Below are positions 32,897-54,203 of a DNA stretch of 64,000 nt, piece by piece. How positions within the stretch are numbered: the first letter of the stretch is position 1; the number at the start of each line of letters is the position of its first letter. Both the position numbers and the translations under genes were made by a program. The notes under the pieces were generated by a model. That model was given only the letters and a program-made list of their open reading frames with translations, was not told the origin of the DNA and ran no database searches. This DNA comes from Escherichia coli (GTDB taxonomy: Bacteria; Pseudomonadota; Gammaproteobacteria; Enterobacterales; Enterobacteriaceae): the NCBI RefSeq assembly GCF_003018255.1, contig NZ_CP027440.1; one strand, 5' to 3'.

Positions 32897-34573
32897 ATGG
32901 CACTAACAGATCGCGCTATAGTCCACGCCAAGCCTTGTGGCAAGCCGTATAAGCTCAGTGACTCGCATGGACTTTACCTGCTGGTTAACCCTAACGGTTC
33001 AAAACGCTGGTACATCAAGTACCGCTTTGTAAACAAAGAGAAAAAGCTCGCTTTAGGCCCTTATCCGCTTTTGACGCTTGCACAGGCAAGACGCATGCGT
33101 GAAGAGGCACAATTATTGCTGATTTCCGGCATCGATCCGAGTGCACGCCGAAAAGCAGAACGCCTTGCGATAACGCCGGAACATACGTTTGAGTCTGTGG
33201 CACGTGAATGGGTCACCAGTAACGTGAACTGGTCGGCGGAACATAAGAAGCGGGTGCTGCGTTATTTCGAGCTTTACGTATTCCCCACGAACGGCAGCTG
33301 TGACATCACCAAAATGAAGGTCAAAGATCTGCTGGTGCCCATCAAGGAAGTGGAGAAAGCGGGCAAACTGGATGTTGCTTCCCGGCTTCAGCAGCGCACT
33401 GCCTGCGTGATGCGCTACGCCGTCCAGAACGGCATTATCGATCATAACCCTGCATCAGATTTAACCGGCGCGGTCTCCACGCCCAAAGTACGGCATCACC
33501 CGGCGTTGGATCTGAATCTTATCCCTGATTTCCTGGAAAGAATCGACGATTACAAAGGCCGTCAACTGACTCAACTGGCGGTAAAACTGGCACTGCTGCT
33601 GTTTATCCGCTCCAGCGAACTGCGCTTTGCCCGCTGGGATGAAATTGATCTGCGTAACGCCATGTGGACCATCCCCGCTGAGCGTGAGCCGATCCCCGGC
33701 GTTAAATATTCAGCGCGTGGGGCGAAGATGCACTCCCCACACCTGGTCCCATTGTCACGTCAGGCCATCGAACTGCTGCACGAGGTGCGGCAGCATTGCC
33801 GACCGGGAACTGAACTGGTGTTCCCCGGCGATCACAATTACCGCAAGCCGATGAGTGAAAACACCATCAACAAAGCGCTGCGGGTGATGGGCTACGACAC
33901 CCAGAAAGATGTCTGTGGCCACGGTTTTCGCACTATGGCCTGTAGCGCGCTGGTGGAGTCGGGGCTGTGGTCAAGCGACGCGGTAGAGCGCCAGATGAGC
34001 CATCAGGAGCGCAAGCGCGTGCGTGCGGCGTATATCCACAAGGCGCAGCATCTCGAAGAACGTTGGGAGATGATGCAGTGGTGGGCGGATTATCTGGATG
34101 CAAACCGGTTCAGGCATGTTGTGCCGTATGGCTTCAAAAAGTCGCCGGGAGGCGCACTCGACCATATGAGTTTCCAGGAGCGCAATGACCGGCAGCTAGA
34201 GGAGCTGAAAGCCAGAATACTGGCTGACTCGGAATGGCTGACGGCGTCTGAATTATCCGCAAAAGCGGGCTTTCGTTCCGCCGATCCTGATGCTGGTCCG
34301 AAAGGCTGGAAAGCCGCCGGGAAGATATTCTCGCTGAAGGTCGATGGTGAGGATTTATACCCTGATTATGTTCTGGATGAGAAAATGCGGCCTCTCAAGG
34401 TTGTCCGTTTGATTCTTTCACTGTTTAAGGAGCGTAAAACACCGTGGGGGCTGGCTATCTGGTTTGGCTCGGCTAATCGCAGGTTGAGAGGTGGGAGGCC
34501 GAAAGACCTGCTGATTTCGAAGTCAGAGTTGGTTCTGATGGCGGCGCAGGAGGAGGTGGAGTCGGGGGAGTAG
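32897..34573 (+). CDS. P4-type tyrosine integrase with ~150-aa C-terminal extension
   Basis: 558 aa; N-terminal arm-binding region, catalytic HGFR and Tyr (AAYIH) region at ~aa 350-375; extension ends in a GGRPKDLL-type motif. Confidence 0.85.
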   Translation: MALTDRAIVHAKPCGKPYKLSDSHGLYLLVNPNGSKRWYIKYRFVNKEKKLALGPYPLLTLAQARRMREEAQLLLISGIDPSARRKAERLAITPEHTFESVAREWVTSNVNWSAEHKKRVLRYFELYVFPTNGSCDITKMKVKDLLVPIKEVEKAGKLDVASRLQQRTACVMRYAVQNGIIDHNPASDLTGAVSTPKVRHHPALDLNLIPDFLERIDDYKGRQLTQLAVKLALLLFIRSSELRFARWDEIDLRNAMWTIPAEREPIPGVKYSARGAKMHSPHLVPLSRQAIELLHEVRQHCRPGTELVFPGDHNYRKPMSENTINKALRVMGYDTQKDVCGHGFRTMACSALVESGLWSSDAVERQMSHQERKRVRAAYIHKAQHLEERWEMMQWWADYLDANRFRHVVPYGFKKSPGGALDHMSFQERNDRQLEELKARILADSEWLTASELSAKAGFRSADPDAGPKGWKAAGKIFSLKVDGEDLYPDYVLDEKMRPLKVVRLILSLFKERKTPWGLAIWFGSANRRLRGGRPKDLLISKSELVLMAAQEEVESGE

Positions 34574-34735
34574 GAATGGTTACTCAACCCTGAAAGAATG
34601 CGTCCAACTACTCTTTACCCTTCTTTCTTTAATGGAAAATGACGTTTGGAAGGTTGAATAAGGCATCGCATTTCTGGCGGTCTTTTTTTGATCATTTACG
34701 TTGCTTCTTTCTTTATTTGTTCATAACATTGTTTT

Positions 34736-34752
34736 GTTCATGATTCATGAAC
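34736..34752. promoter_or_regulatory. 17-bp palindrome GTTCATGATTCATGAAC (candidate operator) just upstream of start codon
   Basis: Perfect 8-bp arms around a central base; candidate -35 TTGCTT / -10 TAACAT immediately upstream; TTGTTCA half-sites repeated nearby. Confidence 0.5.
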
Positions 34753-34756
34753 AGTT

Positions 34757-35770
34757 ATGAGGTGTGAACAAATGAAGGAAGAACAGCTTTTGTCTGATGC
34801 GATAGAGAATCTGCCAAAAGGATTCCATTTGCAGTATGAACATAGCGGTAGACATGGTAAGCACGATGCCTGGGGTAAGCTAACAGGGCCGGATGGTGAG
34901 TCAGTGATATTTGCTCTGGAAGTAAAATTTATCCACCGTAAAGAGTCACTGATGGCTGTTCGCGAACAAATGGTTCGCTTTCCTGCGGATTTTCCTGTGC
35001 TGCTGGTGTGTAACCGCCTGACGTCTGCACTGGCGGAATATTGCGCCGACAGCCAGATCAACTTTATCGATACGGCAGGGAATGCCCGTATCCAGGTTCC
35101 AGGCTTGTATGTGCGGATCGAAGGCCGCTATGAAAAGAAACCCGTTTCCGCCAGCAGTCGTTTTGCTGAAGGGGTGATGAAGCTTCTTTTTGTTTTGCTG
35201 TCTAGCCCAGAGACCCTGAACGAGACTTACCGCAGTCTGGCCGGAAAGGCAGGTATCTCTCTGGGAATGGTCAGCAAGGCTTTTGATTATCTCGAAGCGC
35301 AACGCTATTTCCGCAAATCGAAGAAGGGGCGTCGCTTAATCAATGAAGGCGAGTTAGAGGCTTTGTGGCTGAAAGATTATGCTACAGCTTTGCGCCCTAA
35401 GCTGGATTCGCTTTCTTTATCCGCGCCTGTTTCATGGGATGAGTTGACGCTTGCGTCCGGGGAATACTGGAGCGGCGAGATTGCGGCGGCAAAGCTGAGC
35501 GGAGGATACCTGATACCAGAAAATGGCGTGATTTTTACATCCCATCCGTTGTTACAAAGGCGAAAGGAACTGGGACTAAAACCTGTTCCGGGGGGGAAAC
35601 TACAGCTGATCGCCGGTTTTTGGGGGAACTTTGTACTGAATCACAAAGCCGAGGCGATGCTATGCGTGGCTGAACTGCTGGCAAGCGGGGATGACAGAAA
35701 CTGGGAAACAGCAAGGATAATCAATGACAAATATCTTCACCTTAATGAATCCGATCTCTTCAGCTACTGA
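34757..35770 (+). CDS. Hypothetical protein with N-terminal PD-(D/E)xK-like motif and central winged-HTH
   Basis: 337 aa; GPDGESVIFALEVKF (PD...ExK pattern) and ISLGMVSKAFDYLEAQRYF HTH-like segment; alternative ATG at 34772. Confidence 0.6.
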   Translation: MRCEQMKEEQLLSDAIENLPKGFHLQYEHSGRHGKHDAWGKLTGPDGESVIFALEVKFIHRKESLMAVREQMVRFPADFPVLLVCNRLTSALAEYCADSQINFIDTAGNARIQVPGLYVRIEGRYEKKPVSASSRFAEGVMKLLFVLLSSPETLNETYRSLAGKAGISLGMVSKAFDYLEAQRYFRKSKKGRRLINEGELEALWLKDYATALRPKLDSLSLSAPVSWDELTLASGEYWSGEIAAAKLSGGYLIPENGVIFTSHPLLQRRKELGLKPVPGGKLQLIAGFWGNFVLNHKAEAMLCVAELLASGDDRNWETARIINDKYLHLNESDLFSY

Positions 35771-36533
35771 AACGTTACTGAGTCAGATCAACCGTATTTG
35801 CACCGCTCAGGGGATCCCGTTTTTTATTGCAGGTGCAACGGCTCGTGAAATTCTGCTCCATCATATACACAGCAGAAGTATTGGTCGCCGAACCCGTGAT
35901 ATTGATATTGCCGTCTTTGTGGATAGCTGGCCGAGATTTGATGCGCTTAAAAATGCTTTCCTTGCTGAAGGGGCAGAAGTTGTCCAAGGTAATGCCCATC
36001 GTATGATTGTCAAAGGGATCGAGCTAGATATTATTCCTTTTGGTGGTGTTGCTGAAGGAAATCAAATTGCCTGGCCACCAGAACGTGAGATCATAATGGC
36101 TGTGGATGGATTTGCCGAAGTCTTTTCTCATACCGTAGTTGTGCGGCTGGATAACAGCGAAAATATTCCGTTCTGCTCCTTGCCAGGACTGGCTCTGTTA
36201 AAACTTTTTGCATGGCGTGATCGTGGGCATGGGAGTACTAAAGACGCGACCGATCTCTTTAAGATTATCTGTGAATATGGTGTTATCGAGAATGAACGCA
36301 TCTATGAATCGCCCGTCGAAGGGGAACGCCTGAACTGGGATCCCATACGTATGGGCGCTTTTCTGTTGGGAAGCGATATAGCGACAATTAGTGAACACTC
36401 ATCCTTGCAGGATTTACTCCATCTTGATAAAGAACGCCTGATCGATGTGATAGTACGACAACATGACGTGGGTGATGCTGGGATTGAGCAGATCATCAAT
36501 GATTTCTGGGATGGTATGGCAAGTGATGGTTGA
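35724..36533 (+). CDS. Pol-beta-superfamily nucleotidyltransferase (AbiEii/DUF1814-like motif pattern)
   Basis: 269 aa; AGATA...GRRTRDIDIAVFV then DIIPFGG acidic motif; overlaps upstream gene by up to 47 nt. Confidence 0.6.
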   Translation: MTNIFTLMNPISSATETLLSQINRICTAQGIPFFIAGATAREILLHHIHSRSIGRRTRDIDIAVFVDSWPRFDALKNAFLAEGAEVVQGNAHRMIVKGIELDIIPFGGVAEGNQIAWPPEREIIMAVDGFAEVFSHTVVVRLDNSENIPFCSLPGLALLKLFAWRDRGHGSTKDATDLFKIICEYGVIENERIYESPVEGERLNWDPIRMGAFLLGSDIATISEHSSLQDLLHLDKERLIDVIVRQHDVGDAGIEQIINDFWDGMASDG

Positions 36534-36571
36534 GGATGTAGTTTTAGATGAAATGTTCACAACAGAGTTTT

Positions 36572-36588
36572 GTTCATGAATCATGAAC
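36572..36588. promoter_or_regulatory. Second copy of the 17-bp palindrome (GTTCATGAATCATGAAC) within a ~40-bp duplicated block
   Basis: Block agagttttgttcatgaatcatgaacggtattattgtgaacaatgg matches 34730-34774. Confidence 0.45.
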
Positions 36589-36678
36589 GGTATTATTGTG
36601 AACAATGGCAGGGCGTAACGCCAACTGCCCGATTAAGATGCGCTTATGTTATCAATAATGCCAGCCCAGAGTCAGTCG

Positions 36679-36800
36679 CGACATCATCAAACTGAAGGTC
36701 AAAGGCTTGCTGGTTCCCATCAAAGATAGTGGAGAACGCAGGTAAACTTGATGTTCCACCTTCCACGGCGCACCGCACCTTCGGCATGATGCGCTAATAT
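36679..36800 (+). pseudogene. Internal fragment of a P4-type integrase gene (frameshifted)
   Basis: About 75-80 percent nucleotide identity to 33302-33420 of the intact integrase (by-eye alignment); reading frame breaks. Confidence 0.6.
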
Positions 36801-36840
36801 TATGGCTATATAGGTATTGAAAAGATAAAATATTATCACT

Positions 36841-37329
36841 ATGGCTAAAAAAACGGCTCCCTTAGTTCCCGGTACTAATCAGTTGCTTGCTGAGTTTGGC
36901 GAACGGCTTAAGCTGGCGCGACTGCGACGTAAGCTCACAGCGAAGCGGGTTGCTGAGCGAGCCGGGATGTCGCCAATGACCTTGCGTTCTCTTGAATCAG
37001 GCGGGACGGGCGTGACAATCGGCGCTTATTTGTCAGTTATGCAGATTTTGGGTCTTGAAAAGGATCTGAACAAACTTGCCGCTGAGGATGAACAGGGACG
37101 CCAACTTCAGGATTCCCGGCTAATAAATAAAACGCGTGTTTCTCGTCCTGCTGCTATCTCTCACACAAACAGGCATACCGGAAACGTGATAAAAAACGAT
37201 GCCTTCGACAAGCAATTCTCGACATCACAAGAAAAATCAATCGATTCTGAAGTTAAAACAGAAGTCGTGACATCTGCATCTCTTGCTGCACTGCTAAAAC
37301 CAATAAAGAAACCCAGAAAAGGTAGCTGA
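36841..37329 (+). CDS. XRE-family HTH protein
   Basis: 162 aa, N-terminal HTH_3-type segment ([32 protein letters not shown]). Confidence 0.7.
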
Positions 37330-37692
37330 CACGCTGGAATTTTTGTATTGAAACGAGGGACTATAGATTTCGATAGCAAAAAATAAAGCCTGCTGATGAT
37401 ATGTTTAAAAAATGCCAAAAAATGTACATATGGCGTTGATATGTCGATGCTGTAAACATATTTTGGCGTTATGTCGATAAAACTGGTTTTTTTAAACATA
37501 TCGTCATGCTTAATCCAACCGCTCAATCAGTCTTATATCTGTTATGGAAAATGCTTGTAAAATGGCGCGTTCTGCCATCTGGCAATGTTCATATTTACTG
37601 GCTCGAGGAATATCGTCCCCCCTTAATTTCCATGAAAAGTAATTTTAATTCATTTAGTTATTAATCTTTTCTCCGCTGAGAATATGAATTTT

Positions 37693-37710
37693 TATCCCCT
37701 ATAGGGGATA
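37693..37710. promoter_or_regulatory. 18-bp perfect palindrome TATCCCCTATAGGGGATA matching HipB operator consensus TATCC-N8-GGATA
   Basis: Perfect palindrome 30 bp upstream of the HipB-like ATG; a related TATCC...GGATA site at 37724-37737. Confidence 0.6.
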
Positions 37711-37739
37711 TGCTCAAAATATCTATCCTGGGGGATAAA

Positions 37740-38081
37740 ATGAACGTAACCTCACCCAAAATGTTGTCTCAGGCAATCAGGGATGCACGCAAGCAACGTA
37801 ACCTGACCCAGCGTGAAACTGCAGCAAGTATGGGCATGAAACAGTCAACGGTTTCAGAGTTTGAGAACCATCCTGAGGGGACCAGCCTGGATACGCTCTT
37901 TAAGCTGCTTGCCGCTCTGGACCTTAAGCTTCAGGTCGTAAGCTGGAGGGGTAAAAAAACTCTTCTGATGGCTGGGAGCAGGAGTGGTGATCTGTGGAAA
38001 TATGAACAAAAAGGCCATGGCGCTATCCGGACGGAACCACCATTTTCACTAGCGTACCATCTGGATTTCCAGAGCACATAA
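37740..38081 (+). CDS. HipB-like XRE-family HTH regulator with C-terminal extension
   Basis: MNVTSPKMLSQAIRDARKQRNLTQRETAASMGMKQSTVSEFENHPEGTSLDTLFKLLAALDLKLQVV resembles HipB; operator palindrome upstream. Confidence 0.65.
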   Translation: MNVTSPKMLSQAIRDARKQRNLTQRETAASMGMKQSTVSEFENHPEGTSLDTLFKLLAALDLKLQVVSWRGKKTLLMAGSRSGDLWKYEQKGHGAIRTEPPFSLAYHLDFQST

Positions 38082-38207
38082 GAGAAGCTATTTTTGCATC
38101 AGTCAGCGCGTATTCCGTAGCCATCTCGGCAGTAGTTGAAACAGTAAAAAATGCCCCTATTTCATGGCTAATTAACCGCTAAATTCCAGCCATGGAGGAA
38201 ACCACCG

Positions 38208-38474
38208 ATGTCACCTCGGACACACCGCCAGCTCGTAAGTGTTGAAGTGATGTGGCCTGCTCAGACGCTACCGCTTCCCCTACAACAGGTAGTCGAAGCA
38301 TTGAATCAGGGCGAAACGCCCGATCAGATTATTATCCGCATGAACCAACGGGGTCTGCTGGCGTGGCGTGAGGATGCATCCGCGCAGGATACACACGATA
38401 TCTTTCAGGTACGTCTGGACAACCAGAATGAGGCGCGATTTCTCTGCCGCTACGTTACGTTGCCGCTGCACTGA
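38208..38474 (+). CDS. Hypothetical protein (88 aa)
   Basis: ORF with GGAGGA RBS 7 nt upstream of ATG; no recognisable domain. Confidence 0.4.
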   Translation: MSPRTHRQLVSVEVMWPAQTLPLPLQQVVEALNQGETPDQIIIRMNQRGLLAWREDASAQDTHDIFQVRLDNQNEARFLCRYVTLPLH

Positions 38475-38585
38475 TGCCCCTATCCCGGTAACGCGAAATT
38501 GAAGAGTGCTGTTTATCACCGGATAAATTAATATGCTATAAAATAAAGAGTTAGCAAATGTCGTTTCAGGGATGATGAGTTGTAA

Positions 38586-39239
38586 ATGAAGAAGAAACTG
38601 CCAGACCAGCTTTCCAGGGAATGCATTATTGCGGCTATGCGTGCCTATGATGAAGGTGTACGCCACCAGTTCAGCGAGTCCCGGCTGTATGATGTGGTCT
38701 TTGAAGGGCGCAGTTATCCACCGAAAGCTATAGTCGGTATTGCTGCTTCAAATATGACTGGCGTTGAGTTTTCCCCTGAAGATTTTAGTGGTGGTATCAA
38801 GTCGAAATGCGTCAAGTTGCTTACCGATCAAGGGTTCCAGATCGTTGAGAAACATTTGGGTAACGAGCAGCCCGCCATCAGTATTTTTCCTGATGAACTG
38901 CCACCGCAGAGCGTATTTACTGAAGGTGCAGCTACGCAGGTAACGGTTAATCGCTATGAACGCGACCGTAAGGCCCGACAGGCCGCATTAGCCTGGCATG
39001 GTTGTCTGTGCAAAGTATGTGGTATTGATATGATGAAGGTGTATGGCGAGATAGCGAAAGGTTTTATCCATATACACCACCTGATTCCGCTATCAGACAT
39101 CAAAGAGAATTACTCTCTGGATCCCAAAAAAGATTTTATTCCCGTCTGCCCAAATTGCCACGCCATGTTGCATCGGCGTAATCCGCCTTTTTCGCCTGAA
39201 GAATTGAAATCAATTATTGAATATCATGCGGCTCTTTAG
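38586..39239 (+). CDS. HNH endonuclease family protein (McrA-like HNH core; unknown N-terminal domain)
   Basis: CKVCG...HIHHLIPLS...CPNCH motif set typical of HNH nucleases in the C-terminal third. Confidence 0.75.
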   Translation: MKKKLPDQLSRECIIAAMRAYDEGVRHQFSESRLYDVVFEGRSYPPKAIVGIAASNMTGVEFSPEDFSGGIKSKCVKLLTDQGFQIVEKHLGNEQPAISIFPDELPPQSVFTEGAATQVTVNRYERDRKARQAALAWHGCLCKVCGIDMMKVYGEIAKGFIHIHHLIPLSDIKENYSLDPKKDFIPVCPNCHAMLHRRNPPFSPEELKSIIEYHAAL

Positions 39240-39294
39240 GTATTAAAGCCCATTCGCTGTAGCTCGGTGGAAGAGAGTATTTTGATATAAATAG

Positions 39295-40884
39295 CTATTC
39301 GCGCAGCAACTTCAGCCACGGATTATTCACCGGCACTTTCTCCCCCAACACCTGCTTCGGATCTTCCATCAGAAACCCTTTCAACTGACTACTTTTCTTT
39401 TGTGGAACCCGAACCTCGCAGATCCAGATAAAACTGTCATCATTACAGCGCAGGGCCAGCCCTGACTCCTGAAACATTCGTTGCGCCAGTTTCCAGCCGT
39501 CGCCGCTATCGCCTGTGGTTTCTGCTGCGTATGTTTTAAAGATCCCCGGCGAAATCAAGAAAAGATGGTTTTCCACCACATGTACCTTGCCGTTCCGGGT
39601 ATTCACCGTGGCTGAAGGACTAGTGTGGTTCTTCAGCCACTGCAGGAAATTGTTATTGTCACCAAGCCTCGGATCGTCTGCTATCTCCGGTAACGGTTGA
39701 GTCGGTGCGCTAAGTTCAGGAGCGGGTTCGGCTTCAATTACCGGCGTTACATCACCATCGAAACAGGCCGGACGTTGATCATCCTGCCCCCAGATTACAG
39801 ACGGCGTCAGGCGCAGTAGCGTCAGCGGTTCAACGGGCGACCAGCCTTTATCCGATCGGATAATGCAGCGCCAAATCGCTTTATCTTCGTTGGCAACAAT
39901 AAGCTGATGCGTCAGCAGTTCGTCAAACAGGCGGTTATTGTTTTCCGGCACGCTGGAAACTCCATGCTGGAGCAGCCAGGCGCGAACCCGGTCGGCGGTG
40001 GTTTTGCTGATAAGCCACAGCGCATCCTCCGTCAGCCAGCCATCGGATCCGCATTCGGGATTATTGAGCCGGTACTCGTTCTGTACCAGCGACCGCAAGG
40101 CTGTAAGAAGTTGCTGGGGGAAGGAAGAGGGCTTTTGCGCCAGCGCGGTTTTGATATCGCCGCCGAGGTATCGGGCGACAGAGGCTTTATCGGCCTGCTG
40201 CACCAGTTCAGCCAGTGCGCCAGACCGTTCGTAGTGTCCGGTGAGCTGGTAAATCAGGGACGCAAAAGCCGCCGGGTATCCGGCCAGCCAGTCCAGTAAT
40301 GGCGAGGGTATCAACTGATTAATCAGCATTGCGGTAGCCGCCGGATGCAGATGATAGTCGCGACCGTGGCTCTGGTACTGCCAGCGATAAGGCTGTGCCA
40401 GATAACCCTGCCACGAATGCCAGCGGGTGCCATCACGTTGATGAATCTCCATATCCACGGCGATTTTTCCCGTATCGTGCAGTAATGCCACGCAGACCAC
40501 TGCGACCGTCCATGCGCTGGCCTGCCGGGCCTGTTCTTCCGCGCCCGCTTCCGGTGGTAGCAGATAACCCTGGCGCAGTCGGATGGCGTTGCAGGCAACC
40601 TCCAGCGAATGATCCAGCAACCCGCCGGGAGTGGAATGGTGATGACTTTGTGAGGCGGGAAGCAGTTGTACCAACGCGGCGAAGCGATGAATCGCCGCGA
40701 GGATCCAGCTATCAAACAGGGTATCCGGCAGCGGGGTCAGTTGCCGTAACTGGTGCAAACAGGACTGGCGTAACGGCGTCGCCAGCAATTGTTCTGCGGA
40801 TTGTGGCGCAAACCAGCCCTCCGGCAGCGTAGCGTCTGGCGTAGGTGGCTGGCTCTGGGATGGTCTTTTTAGCCACTTCAGCAT
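39295..40884 (-). CDS. HD-domain protein, putative MobH-family conjugative relaxase (TraI-like)
   Basis: 529 aa; H...HD metal-binding pattern (LLDHSLEV...ALLHDTGK); neighbours are conjugative-element genes. Confidence 0.55.
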   Translation of the reverse strand: MLKWLKRPSQSQPPTPDATLPEGWFAPQSAEQLLATPLRQSCLHQLRQLTPLPDTLFDSWILAAIHRFAALVQLLPASQSHHHSTPGGLLDHSLEVACNAIRLRQGYLLPPEAGAEEQARQASAWTVAVVCVALLHDTGKIAVDMEIHQRDGTRWHSWQGYLAQPYRWQYQSHGRDYHLHPAATAMLINQLIPSPLLDWLAGYPAAFASLIYQLTGHYERSGALAELVQQADKASVARYLGGDIKTALAQKPSSFPQQLLTALRSLVQNEYRLNNPECGSDGWLTEDALWLISKTTADRVRAWLLQHGVSSVPENNNRLFDELLTHQLIVANEDKAIWRCIIRSDKGWSPVEPLTLLRLTPSVIWGQDDQRPACFDGDVTPVIEAEPAPELSAPTQPLPEIADDPRLGDNNNFLQWLKNHTSPSATVNTRNGKVHVVENHLFLISPGIFKTYAAETTGDSGDGWKLAQRMFQESGLALRCNDDSFIWICEVRVPQKKSSQLKGFLMEDPKQVLGEKVPVNNPWLKLLRE

Positions 40885-41057
40885 ATTTCCCCTTTCCGGG
40901 CAGGCCCCTTTGCCCTTGTCGCCCTTCCTTTGCAGTGTCTCCCTTTGGGCCTTTTACATTTTTATTAGTAAAAACGGTATGCTCTCATGTGTATATCTGG
41001 CGCTGTATTTCTGGCCGACGAGGCAAAGTGACCGACGTTTTGTCGGCCACTTTAATA

Positions 41058-41363
41058 CTACCACCAGGCATAAAACATCAGCCTGTCTCGCTCAAAATCA
41101 AACGTCTCCAGCGTCTCCTTCACCCAGAGAGTGACGGTGCGAACGTCTTTCCAGTAGTGTTCTCCATAATCGGTATAACCATAGAAAAAGCCGTCAATCG
41201 TCGGATAAACCGCGCCGCAGTTATCCGGCGTCAGGCTCTGCAGGTCGCTCAGAAGCGCCTGCAAATTTGCTTTGGTGACTTCTAACAGCACTTGGTTGCG
41301 CACCAGCCCAACGTGTTTATCCACCCATTTAAGCAGCGGATTCACCTTGCGGAAATAACCCAC
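41058..41363 (-). CDS. Hypothetical protein (101 aa)
   Basis: ORF between ArdC-like gene and relaxase-like gene, same strand. Confidence 0.4.
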   Translation of the reverse strand: MGYFRKVNPLLKWVDKHVGLVRNQVLLEVTKANLQALLSDLQSLTPDNCGAVYPTIDGFFYGYTDYGEHYWKDVRTVTLWVKETLETFDFERDRLMFYAWW

Positions 41364-41495
41364 TCTGGCGTACTGGCTTTCATCGGGCGCGTTTTTTTTT
41401 CCGTTCGAAAAAGAAGAGATCGAGTCCCATACATTGATCCTCAGAAAAAGGGGAGCAACTTCCCGGCGGGGAAGGCTCCCCGTGCGGGTGGGCTG

Positions 41496-42401
41496 TCAGG
41501 CGCTAAGCTGACAGGGTTGTGGTACAGCGTTGAGCAGCCATTCACTGGCGTGGCGCGCCATACCGCTGGCGCGGATCACCGCCCGCTTGTCCTGGCGCAG
41601 GATATCCAGCCAGTAGCCGATATAGCTGGCGTGCTGGAGCCTGCCCTGAATGCCGCAATGGGCGCACAGGAAGGCGCTACCCATCTCCTCCACTAACTCT
41701 TCAGCAGCGTAGAGTGCTTCGGTGCGTTCCGCTCCGGCAATACCGGGGCGGTTAAGGCGTGAAGCGTGTCCGGTAGCGTGCGTCAGTTCATGCAGCAGCG
41801 TGGCGTAGTACGCCTCGCTGCTTTCAAACTGTTGCGGGTGCGGCATCATCACCAGATCGGTCGCGGGTTTGTAATACGCTTTCGACTGGCGGCGATGGCG
41901 CAGCGTCACACCGCTATTCATCGTAATGGCTTCAGCCATCTCCACAGGCGTTGCGGGCCGGGTAAACGGCTCGGACAGCGCCTGCGGCAGGCCGTCGCAC
42001 TGCGACAGGTTAAACAGCCAAAATTCACGAATAATCCCGAAATGCCGCACCTTCGGCTCGCCGTCTTTATCCAGCAACGGCTGGCCGAGTGCGTCGGTCT
42101 CTTCCTGCGTGCGCGGCAGATACAACACCGCCAGAGAGGATTTCTCCCCCCGGCGCACCTGCCCGCCGAGCGCGCTGACCTGATGGAACGTCAGCCAGCG
42201 GTCGCTGGCGAAGCTCTGCCTGTCGGCGCTGTTCCACAGCAGCGGTACATTGATGCCGTGATACGGACGACCGGATAACGCATTGATCGGGAACGGCGGC
42301 TCGCCATCGCGCCACGGGCGGAGCCACGGCACATTGCCGTTTTCCAGCTCAGCGATAATCTGGTCGGTGACTTTCTGGTAGATATCGTTGCTTCTGTCCA
42401 T
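41496..42401 (-). CDS. ArdC-like antirestriction protein (ssDNA-binding N-domain plus HExxH metallopeptidase-like domain)
   Basis: LLHELTHATGH zincin motif; start placed at ATG 42401 with GAGGA RBS (ORF track start 42440 lacks RBS). Confidence 0.65.
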   Translation of the reverse strand: MDRSNDIYQKVTDQIIAELENGNVPWLRPWRDGEPPFPINALSGRPYHGINVPLLWNSADRQSFASDRWLTFHQVSALGGQVRRGEKSSLAVLYLPRTQEETDALGQPLLDKDGEPKVRHFGIIREFWLFNLSQCDGLPQALSEPFTRPATPVEMAEAITMNSGVTLRHRRQSKAYYKPATDLVMMPHPQQFESSEAYYATLLHELTHATGHASRLNRPGIAGAERTEALYAAEELVEEMGSAFLCAHCGIQGRLQHASYIGYWLDILRQDKRAVIRASGMARHASEWLLNAVPQPCQLSA

Positions 42402-42466
42402 CGTGTGGTCCTCATGGAAAGAAGCCGGAGCCTCCTCCATCCGGAAGCGACTCCGGCGGGGAGAGG

Positions 42467-42757
42467 TTATGCCTGTTCAGCCATCGAGACCTGCACATAG
42501 TGGCCGTGATAGTTGAGCGATAGCGGTAATGCGACAGGGACTTTCATATCGCCCTGCGGCGGCTGGCAGTAGATCGTAAAGGTGACTTTCTTGCGGGATG
42601 TCCCGGCGGTGCGCAGGGTCAGCAGTACGACGAGCAACAGATTGCCCAGCCGTTCTTCCACCTGCTGCGGGTCGGCGGGAAATTCCACTGCGGATTGCCA
42701 GACATCAGGGGCGATAACCACCGGCATTAACGACGGTTTTTTATCGAAAAGCGACAT
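42467..42757 (-). CDS. Hypothetical protein (96 aa), conjugative-element associated
   Basis: Start at MSLFDK with AGGAGA RBS; same strand and tight spacing with ArdC-like gene. Confidence 0.45.
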   Translation of the reverse strand: MSLFDKKPSLMPVVIAPDVWQSAVEFPADPQQVEERLGNLLLVVLLTLRTAGTSRKKVTFTIYCQPPQGDMKVPVALPLSLNYHGHYVQVSMAEQA

Positions 42758-43048
42758 GGTGTTTCTCCTGTAAATGAGCAGGGAACACCCTTCGCAGGGC
42801 GTTTCCCTGCGGGATGGAATGGTACGGGTATCCTGCGCATCTGCGCCGTTCGCACCTTCCGGATACATGGCGAACTTACTGCATGGCTGGCGGTAGTGTT
42901 TTCTGCGCGGGTGATAAAAGGGAGGGGAAAATCATTACTGGGGCTGAAGAGTTTTGTCGTTCCTGAAATGTGAACACAGGTAGATTGATGCGCACGCATC
43001 GCTCAAAAAACGATCTTTTTCAGGCGGATACTGAAATCAGAAAAGCAT

Positions 43049-43291
43049 ATGACCTTGAACAGTAAACACAATGACTGGAGGGATATGCTAATGAACCGAC
43101 AAGATATAAACGCATTAAAGAATTTTGATTTTCTGGCGCGCAGTTTTGCCCGTATGCACGCCCTGGGCCAGCCAGTTGATATCGATGCCGTTACCGGCAA
43201 TATGAGTGATGAACAGCAAGCATGGTTCCGGGAGCGATACGACCACTACCGAAAGCAGGCTGAGCGGGCGAGAGTGATAGAACTGCGGTGA
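43049..43291 (+). CDS. Hypothetical small protein (80 aa)
   Basis: ORF followed by a terminator hairpin at 43302-43330. Confidence 0.35.
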
Positions 43292-43301
43292 TGTAACGAA
43301 C

Positions 43302-43330
43302 AACGGGCTTAACGGCCCGTTGCGTTTTTT
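43302..43330 (+). terminator. Rho-independent terminator
   Basis: aacgggc ttaacg gcccgtt then gcgtttttt. Confidence 0.55.
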
Positions 43331-43435
43331 CAGACTCCAGCTACCTACCACGAGATTGTCACTGACACGACAGTTTATGCGGTGCGCATAAACTCAGCTA
43401 CAAGCCCTGTTCATCACACCGTCAGTACGAAATCT

Positions 43436-53255: not shown

Positions 53256-54203
53256 ATGAGAAAAATTCTTTTCTTCCTGCTGTTGATGATAGCCGTCCTG
53301 CCGGAGGTTCAGGCCACCTGTTCGTTCTACGGTGGTGTGACATCAGAAGTATCGGGTTACCTGAATTTCGGCAACGTGGTTATCCAGCGGGATGCACAGG
53401 TCGGCAGCACGATTGCCACTGCCATTACAGGGGCATACAACAATGGCGACGGCATTGCCGGGTGTAAGCGGGAGGCCTGGACCGCCCGCTGGGAACTGAC
53501 GCAATGGGGGACGCTGAGTGGCTATGGGAATGGTGTCTACAACACCAACCTGCCAGGGGTAGGATTACGTCTGAGTGCGGCCTCGACAGGTAAAACATTG
53601 CCCTATGAAACCAGCTACGCCTACAACGCTGGCGGCACCTGGGTATCCATTCCCGGTGATGGCATCAAGGGCGAGCTTATCAAAACCGGGGATATCACCA
53701 GCGGTACATTAACGGACGGTGTGCTGGCGCGCGCTTCGGTAGTGAATCAGTTTTATTTTGCCAACGTCACGTTGAACGGGATGAACACAGTGAAATCAGA
53801 AGCTTGTACTGTGACCACGCCCTCTGTTGATGTCCCGATGGGGGATCACGATAAAAGCGAATTCAGTGGTGCGGGATCTTCAACCGACTGGGTGAGCTTT
53901 GATATTGGTTTGAGCTGCGATGTCGGGGCGAGAATAAACGTACGTATCGATGCCACTGCGGATGCTTCCGCCGGTTCGCAAGGCGTCATGCTGATTGATA
54001 GCGGCGGGGCGTCTGGCGTGGGGATACAACTTCATTACCGCCCGGATGATGCCGCTGTCCAGTACGGTCAGGAACGGTTTTACTGGCAGTCGGTATATGG
54101 TGACGAGATCGTGCAGCTTAAGGCGCGATATTACCAGACTGCAGGCTCGATCACGCCAGGTGCGGCAAACGGTACGGCGACGTTTACGATGAGTTATAAA
54201 TAG
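53256..54203 (+). CDS. Fimbrial adhesin-like two-domain subunit (paralogue 2)
   Basis: 315 aa; C-terminal half aligns with paralogue 1 (…QLKARYYQTA…ATFT.SYK), N-terminal half diverged. Confidence 0.7.
   Translation: MRKILFFLLLMIAVLPEVQATCSFYGGVTSEVSGYLNFGNVVIQRDAQVGSTIATAITGAYNNGDGIAGCKREAWTARWELTQWGTLSGYGNGVYNTNLPGVGLRLSAASTGKTLPYETSYAYNAGGTWVSIPGDGIKGELIKTGDITSGTLTDGVLARASVVNQFYFANVTLNGMNTVKSEACTVTTPSVDVPMGDHDKSEFSGAGSSTDWVSFDIGLSCDVGARINVRIDATADASAGSQGVMLIDSGGASGVGIQLHYRPDDAAVQYGQERFYWQSVYGDEIVQLKARYYQTAGSITPGAANGTATFTMSYK

What the first reader, a model, noticed from the sequence alone, without database searches (positions are those of the whole stretch)
38208..39239. HNH nuclease with an uncharacterised N-terminal domain downstream of HipB-like regulator
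The 217-aa protein has a McrA-like HNH core (CKVCG...HIHHLIPLS...CPNCH) but an N-terminal ~120-aa domain I cannot assign (ESRLYDVVFEGRSYPPKAIVGIAAS). The architecture resembles modification-dependent (Type IV) restriction enzymes, where an N-terminal modified-base reader is fused to HNH. Together with the 88-aa ORF and the upstream HTH regulator it may be a small defence operon.
Basis: partly seen in the sequence, partly recalled or inferred. Interest (0 to 1): 0.5.

Follow-up and report, generated by a model that had tools for sequence, protein, structure and literature searches.

The report
Standalone head-domain HNH restriction-like nuclease
This 217-residue E. coli protein joins an intact McrA-type DNA-cutting (HNH) domain to the small "head" domain of the Streptomyces restriction enzyme ScoMcrA, whose function nobody knows; it rides alone as a swappable cargo gene on an integrative conjugative element and most likely cuts foreign DNA, but its two upstream neighbours are not its partners.

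Summary
The ORFs are real and sit at the stated coordinates. These are a 217-aa HNH protein (38586..39239, +), an 88-aa ORF (38208..38474) and a HipB-like HTH (37710..38081).

The C-terminus is a catalytically intact Cys4-zinc HNH. It is closest to EcoKMcrA.

Head domains occur in about 2,900 cluster representatives. They are fused mainly to HNH, NOV_C or McrB-like modules, often alongside EVE, SRA or DUF3427 readers. Homologues have no conserved neighbour and no methyltransferase, and often lie in defence islands. A Type IV-like restriction role is therefore the best reading, but it is unproven and the target is unknown.

The "operon" idea fails. The gene is a single-gene cassette (38478-39306, 45% GC) in an ICE at leuX, and sibling ICEs carry a GNAT gene in that slot. 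The 88-aa ORF belongs to the ICE backbone and is a pseudogene in a strain whose HNH gene is intact. The HTH is orphan cargo.

Between two ICE alleles the head-coding part has been swapped by recombination.

Novelty is moderate: an uncharacterised sensor in a familiar enzyme design.

The parts
38478..39306 (.). Single-gene cargo cassette (variable slot 2 of the ICE) holding only the head-HNH gene and its upstream region
   Evidence: blastn of the window against sibling ICEs: homology to E. coli S10 stops at 38477 and resumes at 39307. S10 has a 656-bp GNAT segment there instead. GC is 45% against 55-61% for the flanking backbone genes.
38478..38585 (+). AT-rich upstream region that travels with the gene; presumed own promoter and RBS
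   Evidence: It is part of the cassette. The consensus scan found no promoter or terminator here, so a promoter is inferred, not shown.
38586..39239 (+). CDS of the 217-aa ScoMcrA_N (head)-HNH protein, WP_001561262.1
   Evidence: ORF list; RefSeq annotation; 3,058 homologous clusters carrying PF26345+PF01844; dN/dS about 0.1.
38598..38855 (+). Head domain (residues ~5-90), homologous to the ScoMcrA N-terminal head domain; presumed targeting module
38856..38930 (+). Low-confidence, length-variable linker (residues ~91-115)
   Evidence: Residues 92-101 and 103-105 have pLDDT <50; ten-residue blocks covering 91-120 average 44-51. Indels in the family alignment fall here.
38931..39236 (+). HNH nuclease domain (residues ~116-217): Cys4 zinc site C142/C145/C188/C191; H165, D183 and H192 at the H-N-H positions
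   Evidence: Pfam HNH E 1.2e-5. EcoKMcrA 6ghc E 2e-6. All listed residues are invariant in 36 homologues. Equivalence to ScoMcrA H508/N522/H531 and C484/C489/C527/C530 comes and the supplement read; the H165 and D183 equivalences are by motif inspection.
38440..38890 (.). Recombination patch: the head-coding part plus upstream region is ~60-85% identical to the strain C11 allele, while flanking DNA is 95-100% identical
   Evidence: 60-nt sliding identity. N-domain dS 1.38 against HNH dS 0.08 between the two alleles.

Best explanation
The gene encodes a standalone, Type IV-like restriction nuclease. It is carried as single-gene cargo on a PFGI-1/SPI-7-type integrative conjugative element inserted at tRNA-Leu (leuX, identified from the flanking genes).

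Shown:
- The protein has a ~90-residue ScoMcrA_N head domain, a flexible ~25-residue linker, and a McrA-type beta-beta-alpha-metal HNH domain.
- The HNH domain has an intact Cys4 zinc site and intact catalytic histidines.
- The gene has no conserved partner gene, no cognate methyltransferase and no immunity gene.
- It moves as an autonomous cassette.

Inferred:
- The enzyme probably dimerises through its HNH domains, as EcoKMcrA, TagI and ScoMcrA do.
- The two tethered head domains dock on a feature of incoming DNA that the host's own DNA lacks.
- The HNH domains then nick or cut nearby.
- The host is E. coli (Dam/Dcm by general knowledge), and the same ICE encodes a cytosine methyltransferase. 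The target therefore cannot be Dam, Dcm or that enzyme's mark. Candidates are phage hypermodified bases, foreign methylation patterns or backbone modifications.
- Allelic replacement of the head-coding segment on a constant HNH suggests that the head sets specificity.
For: Head-domain homology:
- phmmer and profile matches to ScoMcrA 5ZMM residues 4-93.
- Homologues carry PF26345:ScoMcrA_N.

Intact nuclease:
- Pfam HNH and an EcoKMcrA match.
- Invariant C142, C145, H164, H165, D183, C188, N190, C191, H192 and H196.

Purifying selection in both domains: dN/dS 0.11-0.12.

Architectural company. Of 88 diverse head-domain proteins, counts at E<=0.001 were: HNH 35, HNH_2 16, EVE 12, NOV_C 9, AAA_5 6, DUF3427 4, SRA 2, MrcB_N 2, AspBHI_N 1. 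Six of 10 long ones are McrB homologues. AFDB names agree.

Neighbourhoods. There is no conserved partner in 8 contexts, and defence genes are adjacent in several:
- Type I R-M, Mrr_N-HNH and SBD-HNH in K. aerogenes.
- Type I R-M in Enterobacter.
- GmrSD_N and NACHT in Shewanella.
- Wadjet, Zorya and SBD-HNH in E. coli LD67-1.
- AbiEi/AbiEii 2 kb upstream in the window.

Cassette behaviour is shown. The head-segment swap is shown. The full-length protein is absent from 50,697 phage records.
Against: - No biochemical or genetic datum exists for any head-HNH protein in the literature I could search.
- The only solved head domain, in ScoMcrA, is described as small, flexibly attached and of unknown function. 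In ScoMcrA, PT-DNA is recognised by the SBD, and the SRA domain is credited with 5mC/5hmC recognition.
- In many proteins the head sits beside bona fide readers, so it could be an accessory rather than a reader.
- PADLOC and NCBIfam give only partial or no family matches.
- Three of eight homologue neighbourhoods show no defence genes.
- No promoter was detected.
Confidence: 0.55

Rival explanations
1. The head domain is not a modification reader. It is an accessory module, for example a generic DNA or protein anchor, or a regulatory switch. The protein would then be a nuclease with some other trigger or role: an abortive-infection effector activated by a phage cue, or a structure- or end-specific nuclease acting on entering DNA.
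For: The ScoMcrA head has no assigned function, and its SBD and SRA domains account for that enzyme's known DNA recognition. The head frequently co-occurs with established readers such as EVE, SRA, DUF3427 and MrcB_N. In McrB homologues it sits in long multi-domain N-terminal regions, not alone. No similarity to known reader folds was found.
Against: HNH-family domains are the commonest partners of the head domain. In the ~215-aa head-HNH homologues, which dominate the full-length search, the head is the only non-catalytic domain. With no immunity or methyltransferase partner, something in the protein must discriminate self from non-self. The head-coding segment is exchanged between alleles while the HNH stays constant, as is typical of specificity modules. 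Polar residues in the head are strictly conserved across architectures: S32 and D36 invariant, H27, Y35 and K47 nearly so.
Confidence: 0.25
2. One reading: the HipB-like HTH, the 88-aa ORF and the HNH gene form one small defence or toxin-antitoxin operon. The HTH or the small protein would regulate or neutralise the nuclease, possibly to stabilise the ICE.
For: The three genes are co-oriented and close together. The HTH resembles the antitoxin HipB at 68.5 bits. TA and Abi modules are common ICE cargo, for example AbiEi/AbiEii just upstream.
Against: - Homology breakpoints separate the three into different blocks.
- S10-type ICEs keep the 88-aa ORF but have GNAT instead of HNH and Fic instead of the HTH.
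- Strain C11 has an internal stop in the 88-aa ORF with an intact HNH.
- The Res13 variant has the HNH without this HTH.
- The 88-aa family has only 58 clusters, all named ones from Enterobacterales, against 3,058 for the HNH.
- Elsewhere the 88-aa homologue lies between traD and a DtrJ-like gene.
- None of the 8 homologue neighbourhoods has either partner.
Confidence: 0.05
3. The nuclease serves the element itself. It would be a conjugation accessory working with the adjacent MobH relaxase, or a selfish homing-type HNH like those of phages.
For: The gene lies 55 bp from the 3' end of mobH, convergent with it. HNH-only relatives occur on conjugative plasmids and in phages.
Against: Sibling ICEs with the same mobH backbone (94% identical) lack the gene. 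Homologues occur outside ICEs, next to housekeeping or defence genes. A paralogue sits at a fixed chromosomal site near nanS, and that locus (paralogue plus flanks) is at least 80% covered in 723 or more E. coli genomes. No full-length copy is found in phages. The gene is not inserted into another gene, intron or intein.
Confidence: 0.07

Closest known systems
ScoMcrA (Sco4631; PDB 5ZMM), a Type IV PT- and 5mC-dependent head-SBD-SRA-HNH endonuclease of Streptomyces coelicolor
   Different: The window protein has 217 aa against 561 in the ScoMcrA chain. It has no SBD and no SRA domain, which are the domains that give ScoMcrA its known specificities. At four positions invariant across 88 diverse head proteins (S32, D36, P46, F67) the ScoMcrA head has A, F, S and L. 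The two HNH domains are only weakly similar (7.3 bits).
EcoKMcrA (PDB 6GHC), the NEco-HNH Type IV enzyme of the E. coli e14 prophage
   Same: It is also a small two-domain enzyme with an N-terminal targeting domain and a C-terminal HNH, encoded by a single gene without a methyltransferase on a mobile element (the e14 location is from established knowledge). Among PDB sequences other than ScoMcrA, whose match rests on the head domain, its HNH is the closest (E 2e-6).
   Different: The N-terminal domains are unrelated. Only residues ~177-269 of EcoKMcrA align, and NEco is not among the structural matches. The structural Asn of the H-N-H motif is Asp183 here.
EcoWI-type SBD-HNH phosphorothioate-dependent endonucleases
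   Same: They have the same reader-linker-HNH design and similar size. They are carried in slot 3 of sibling ICEs. They sit divergently next to head-HNH paralogues in E. coli LD67-1 and K. aerogenes.
   Different: Their sensor is the sulfur-binding domain (PF26340) and their nuclease is HNH_2 (PF13391). Their PT dependence is demonstrated (PMC7461809), whereas nothing has been demonstrated for head-HNH.
SRA-HNH (TagI) and EVE-HNH (VcaM4I) modification-dependent endonucleases
   Same: They follow the same sensor-plus-HNH logic. Some head-domain proteins also contain EVE or SRA domains.
   Different: The head fold is not PUA, EVE or SRA. TagI matches only in the HNH part (E 0.019).

Membership tests
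ScoMcrA_N head-domain family (Pfam PF26345) | Sequence match to the head domain of ScoMcrA or to the family model | tested here: met
   phmmer 26-88 vs 5zmm_A 30-93. Profile E 4.1e-8 over residues 6-88. Homologues at 46-97% identity carry precomputed PF26345, which the tool names ScoMcrA_N. The Pfam copy used by profile_search did not report this family.
ScoMcrA_N head-domain family (Pfam PF26345) | Same three-dimensional fold as the solved head domain | tested here: met
HNH (beta-beta-alpha-metal) nucleases, McrA-like Cys4-zinc subgroup | HNH motif with catalytic His, metal-ligand His and two CxxC pairs | tested here: met
   PF01844 E 1.2e-5. C142, C145, H164, H165, C188, C191, H192 and H196 are invariant. 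The central Asn position is an invariant Asp183, a variant of the motif.
EcoKMcrA family | NEco N-terminal 5mC/5hmC-binding domain | tested here: not met
   Only the HNH region of 6ghc aligns. PADLOC model PDLC03656 matches only positions 181-257 of 277. There is no NEco structural match.
ScoMcrA/SprMcrA/EcoWI PT-dependent endonucleases | Sulfur-binding domain (SBD, PF26340) | tested here: not met
Type IV (modification-dependent) restriction enzymes, functional class | No cognate methyltransferase; acts as a solitary nuclease gene | tested here: met
   No conserved methyltransferase or any other conserved neighbour in 8 neighbourhoods.
Type IV (modification-dependent) restriction enzymes, functional class | Cleaves modified DNA but not unmodified DNA | not testable with these tools
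   This needs enzymology or phage and plasmid challenge. No published data were found.
HipBA toxin-antitoxin module (for the upstream HTH) | HipB antitoxin followed by a HipA kinase gene | tested here: not met
   The HTH scores 68.5 bits against a cut-off of 79 for HipB. No HipA-like sequence lies downstream in any frame. A HipA fragment exists only in another ICE variant.

The most novel reading that the evidence does not exclude
The ScoMcrA_N head domain is a previously unrecognised class of non-self-DNA sensor, reading a modified base, a modified backbone or another DNA feature. Head-HNH would be its minimal effector form. This would define a widespread new family of Type IV restriction enzymes: about 2,900 cluster representatives at 50% identity carry the domain, and the chromosomal locus holding a paralogue is present in at least 13% of complete E. 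coli genomes. Specificity would be retuned by swapping head alleles. A weaker corollary is that the recurrent divergent SBD-HNH/head-HNH gene pair is a split counterpart of ScoMcrA.
Probability: 0.4. Interest if true: 0.6.

Novelty: new variant of a known kind. Interest (0 to 1): 0.42.

Why it matters
Modification-dependent restriction enzymes are both phage barriers and tools for mapping DNA modifications; EcoWI-seq, for example, maps phosphorothioates. Every new sensor domain has so far brought a new specificity.

The head domain is common. About 2,900 cluster representatives carry it, fused to HNH, NOV_C and McrB-like modules. Yet it has no known ligand, and its only structure (ScoMcrA) gave no clue to function.

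The 217-aa head-HNH protein is the simplest system in which to find out what the head does. It is one gene from E. coli, with a natural pair of head alleles on an almost identical nuclease.

The finding also shows how ICEs of the leuX family shuffle single-gene defence cargo in fixed slots. If the protein turns out to be an ordinary non-specific nuclease, the value is limited to better annotation.

Tried and rejected
- **Pfam-A scan of the protein.** It found only HNH. The head family is missing from that library copy, so the assignment rests on PDB sequence and structure matches and on precomputed annotations.
- **NCBIfam.** No family matched.
- **PADLOC.** Only partial matches to two mREase_IV models, one to the ScoMcrA-like N-terminus and one to the McrA-like HNH. 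None of the library's other defence-system models matched.
- **Foldseek of the full-length model against the PDB.** It added only weak Cap5 and Cas9 HNH matches.
- **Operon or TA model with the 88-aa ORF and the HTH.** Rejected. The 88-aa protein has no Pfam match (BrxA at 0.085 is noise).
- **Search for a HipA remnant downstream of the HTH.** None found.
- **Promoter and terminator scan.** Nothing at the gene.
- **Literature searches** for the head domain, PF26345 and the protein accession. The only statement found was 'unknown function'. END nucleases (PMC12191111) are an analogy only, because their sensor is an inactive EndoIII domain.
- **First blastn attempt.** It failed because of file naming and was repeated successfully.

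Full report
**1. Observation**

- a 217-aa ORF at 38586..39239 (+);
- an 88-aa ORF at 38208..38474 (+);
- an HTH ORF at 37710..38081 (+), with a second HTH at 36841..37329.

The quoted motifs are present. The window is 100% identical to the chromosome of E. coli JNE23-011 (NZ_AP045067.1). There the genes are annotated 'helix-turn-helix', 'hypothetical protein', 'HNH endonuclease' (WP_001561262.1) and, convergent with them, 'MobH family relaxase'.

**2. The C-terminal half**

Pfam finds HNH on residues 142-198 (E 1.2e-5). Among solved structures the HNH part is closest to EcoKMcrA (6GHC). The single sequence gives E 7.5e-4 and a 36-sequence family profile gives 2e-6; TagI is weaker.

In an alignment of 36 homologues (46-86% identity), these residues are invariant: C142, C145, H162, H164, H165, D183, C188, N190, C191, H192 and H196. 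I compared them with the ScoMcrA active site and zinc ligands, which are H508/N522/H531 and C484/C489/C527/C530 (supplement of PMC6224610; alignment). This gives a Cys4 zinc site, with H165, D183 and H192 at the H-N-H positions. An invariant Asp replaces the usual Asn. The H165 and D183 equivalences rest on motif inspection, because the HMMER alignment is shifted around the HH motif. The nuclease looks catalytically competent.

**3. The N-terminal half is assignable**

- phmmer aligns residues 26-88 to residues 30-93 of ScoMcrA (5ZMM).
- A profile of 28 N-terminal domains matches ScoMcrA residues 4-93 at E 4.1e-8, with nothing else credible.
- An AlphaFold2 model of residues 1-100 is confident (pLDDT 88.5). 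Its order of elements is helix, beta-hairpin, helix, helix, strand.

Precomputed annotations on homologues call the domain PF26345, which the tools name ScoMcrA_N. UniProt names in AFDB say 'ScoMcrA-like N-terminal head domain'. The domain is therefore catalogued but functionally blank. The ScoMcrA structure paper describes it as small, flexibly attached and of unknown function (PMC6224610). A later biochemical paper only lists it (PMC7461809). Five literature searches found nothing more.

In the full-length model, residues 92-101 and 103-105 have pLDDT <50 and the 91-120 blocks average 44-51. This stretch also varies in length across the family, so it is probably a flexible linker.

**4. What the head domain keeps company with**

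A profile search of 1.84 billion cluster representatives found 2,934 proteins at E<=1e-3 and 1,082 at E<=1e-10. Their lengths run from about 100 to more than 1,500 residues.

I scanned 88 diverse full-length hits against Pfam. Counts at E<=0.001 were:

| Pfam family | Proteins |
|---|---|
| HNH | 35 |
| HNH_2 | 16 |
| EVE | 12 |
| NOV_C (a restriction-endonuclease-like nuclease, from my own knowledge) | 9 |
| AAA_5 | 6 |
| nSTAND3 | 5 |
| DUF3427 | 4 |
| SAD/SRA | 2 |
| MrcB_N | 2 |
| AspBHI_N | 1 |

Six of ten long members are McrB homologues by NCBIfam. This is the company kept by Type IV restriction modules.

The evidence cuts two ways. The head is often beside known modified-base readers, so it may be an accessory. 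Against that, HNH-family domains are its commonest partners. In the ~215-aa head-HNH proteins that dominate the full-length search, the head is the only non-catalytic domain.

Across these 88 architectures F29, S32, D36, P46, G51, F67 and G70 are invariant, and H27, Y35, P45, K47 and A48 nearly so. This aromatic and polar set would suit a ligand pocket (inference). ScoMcrA's own head has A, F, S and L at S32, D36, P46 and F67, and Y at H27. The one head domain studied structurally is thus atypical, and its lack of evident function may not generalise (inference).

**5. Genomic context of homologues**

Eight neighbourhoods were inspected, and no gene is conserved next to head-HNH:

| Organism or sample | Neighbours |
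|---|---|
| K. aerogenes | Type I R-M, an Mrr_N-HNH and an SBD-HNH |
| Enterobacter sp. C2 | Type I R-M |
| Shewanella algae | GmrSD_N and NACHT genes |
| Pantoea stewartii | a helicase-PLD gene, CdiI, SymE |
| E. coli LD67-1 | Wadjet JetD and type II Zorya, divergent from an intact SBD-HNH |
| three metagenomic or genomic contexts | ordinary genes |

The full-length protein is absent from 50,697 phage records and nearly absent from true plasmids. A solitary nuclease with no methyltransferase or immunity partner, often in defence islands, fits a Type IV-like enzyme. It does not fit a toxin-immunity or homing system.

**6. The local context refutes the operon idea**

The island sits at tRNA-Leu next to ahr/yjgR. 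It is an ICE of the PFGI-1/SPI-7 kind, with MobH, ArdC, TraG_N, TIGR0375x ICE proteins and PilL2. blastn against sibling ICEs gives the following map:

| Window coordinates | Content |
|---|---|
| to 34581 | integrase region, conserved |
| 34582-38123 | variable slot 1: AbiEi/AbiEii plus two HTH genes here; Fic genes in strain S10 |
| 38124-38477 | the 88-aa ORF block, conserved at 92% |
| 38478-39306 | variable slot 2: the HNH gene here; a GNAT acetyltransferase on the other strand in S10 |
| 39307-43329 | mobH to glgS, conserved at 94% |
| 43330-43400 | slot 3: empty here; an 873-bp SBD-HNH 'phosphorothioated DNA-binding restriction endonuclease' in S10 and C11, also annotated in Res13 |

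About 38 complete E. coli genomes have the 88-aa block without the HNH gene. Only 7 have the HNH: six matches cover the whole 1.8-kb query and one covers 62% of it.

Further points against an operon:
- In strain C11 the 88-aa ORF has an internal stop while the HNH is intact.
- The 88-aa family has 58 clusters. All members named by a source come from Enterobacterales, and none has a Pfam domain.
- In other ICEs an 80%-identical homologue lies between traD and a DtrJ-like gene, overlapping traD. It is therefore most likely a backbone gene of the conjugation apparatus.
- The HipB-like HTH scores below the HipB cut-off and has no HipA downstream.
- The HTH is absent from two ICE variants. One of them (Res13) carries the HNH and retains a HipA fragment.

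The HNH cassette has 45% GC against 55-61% for the adjacent backbone genes. It is an autonomous single-gene cargo.

**7. A head-allele swap**

I compared the window with the C11 ICE. The DNA is 95-100% identical on both sides of a ~450-bp patch (about 38440-38890), which falls to about 60-85% identity. The patch covers the gene's upstream region and codons 1 to ~100.

| Region | dS | dN | dN/dS |
|---|---|---|---|
| Head (codons 1-100) | 1.38 | 0.16 | 0.12 |
| HNH (codons 116-217) | 0.08 | 0.008 | 0.11 |

Both halves are under purifying selection, but the head-coding module was replaced by recombination on a constant nuclease. That is what one expects of a specificity module. It is also compatible with neutral mosaicism.

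**8. Mechanism proposed**

Shown: the domain composition, intact catalytic and zinc residues, purifying selection, solitary cassette behaviour, and association with restriction-type modules.

Inferred:
- dimerisation through the HNH domains, as in EcoKMcrA, TagI and ScoMcrA;
- docking of the head domains on a feature absent from host DNA;
- cleavage nearby by the tethered HNH.

The host is E. coli (Dam/Dcm by general knowledge), and the same ICE encodes a cytosine methyltransferase with Vsr. The target therefore cannot be those marks. Hypermodified phage bases, foreign methylation patterns or backbone modifications remain open.

I put 0.55 on 'defence nuclease whose head domain targets non-self DNA'. 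I put 0.25 on 'a nuclease whose head has another role'. The operon/TA reading and the element-service or homing readings get small residual probabilities.

**9. Comparison and novelty**

The protein works like EcoKMcrA, SRA-HNH, EVE-HNH and SBD-HNH enzymes. It is a member of none of those families, because each is defined by a sensor domain that is absent here (see the membership table). It is a member of the ScoMcrA_N domain family and of the HNH superfamily.

RefSeq already annotates it, uninformatively, as 'HNH endonuclease', and Pfam already holds the domain. What is new is the case that head-HNH is a distinct, widespread, uncharacterised Type IV-like architecture, with a tractable E. coli representative and natural head alleles. 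I rate it a new variant of a known kind, with interest 0.42.

Noticed in passing
outside the window: L020:36775-37425 (NZ_AP045067.1 484774-485424); also L023:2772-4432 and L002:4952-6636: The same genome carries a second head-HNH paralogue (61% identical) beside nanS/nanM/nanC/fimB. It is divergent from a 150-bp remnant of an SBD-HNH 'phosphorothioated DNA-binding restriction endonuclease'. At least 80% of this locus is present in 723 or more of 5,426 complete E. coli genomes. Intact divergent SBD-HNH/head-HNH pairs exist in E. coli LD67-1 and K. aerogenes. ScoMcrA joins head and SBD in one chain, so the pair could be a split counterpart or just defence-island clustering.
   Followed up: partly
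window 43330-43400: ICE slot 3, between glgS and the TraG_N gene, is empty here. It holds an 873-bp SBD-HNH (EcoWI-like) gene in strains S10 and C11, and the same gene is annotated there in Res13.
   Followed up: partly
window 38208-38474: The 88-aa ORF is a conserved small gene (58 clusters; all named ones from Enterobacterales) with no Pfam domain. In other ICEs an 80%-identical homologue lies between traD and a DtrJ-like/DUF4400 gene and overlaps traD by 38 nt. Here it lies near mobH instead, while this ICE's own traD abuts DUF4400 directly. It may be a relaxosome or coupling-protein accessory that has been relocated.
   Followed up: partly
window 34757-36533: An AbiEi/AbiEii (type IV TA, abortive infection) pair is annotated in variable slot 1 of the ICE. 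It is followed by two orphan HTH genes (36841-37329 and 37710-38081). Sibling ICEs carry Fic genes or a HipA fragment in this slot.
   Followed up: partly
window ~32897-34144, and outside the window (NZ_AP045067.1 469305-471110): The ICE integrase next to tRNA-Leu is annotated as a partial pseudogene lacking its C-terminus, and the ICE topoisomerase III has an internal stop. The element may no longer be able to excise or transfer. Strain C11 has a full-length integrase.
   Followed up: no
window ~47443-54200: A tyrosine-type DNA invertase is followed by a complete chaperone-usher fimbrial operon, carried as ICE cargo in the middle of the conjugation genes. A recombinase and ParB/RepB genes follow it. 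The fimbriae may be phase-variable.
   Followed up: no
window ~43090-43290: The ICE backbone carries its own copy of a glgS-like 'cell surface composition regulator' gene. It is conserved in all sibling ICEs examined.
   Followed up: no
outside the window: NZ_AP045067.1 476631-483520: The far end of the same ICE carries further likely defence cargo: a DUF262 + DUF3696 gene pair, and a DNA cytosine methyltransferase with a Vsr endonuclease and an adjacent hypothetical gene.
   Followed up: no
phage collection hits H65-H71 (Vibrio cyclitrophicus 'PE' elements): Related ~37-kb Vibrio elements carry, at nearby positions in similarly sized records, either a head-domain-only match (query residues 5-89) or an HNH-only match (residues 125-216). 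This hints at modular exchange of the two halves in another lineage.
   Followed up: no
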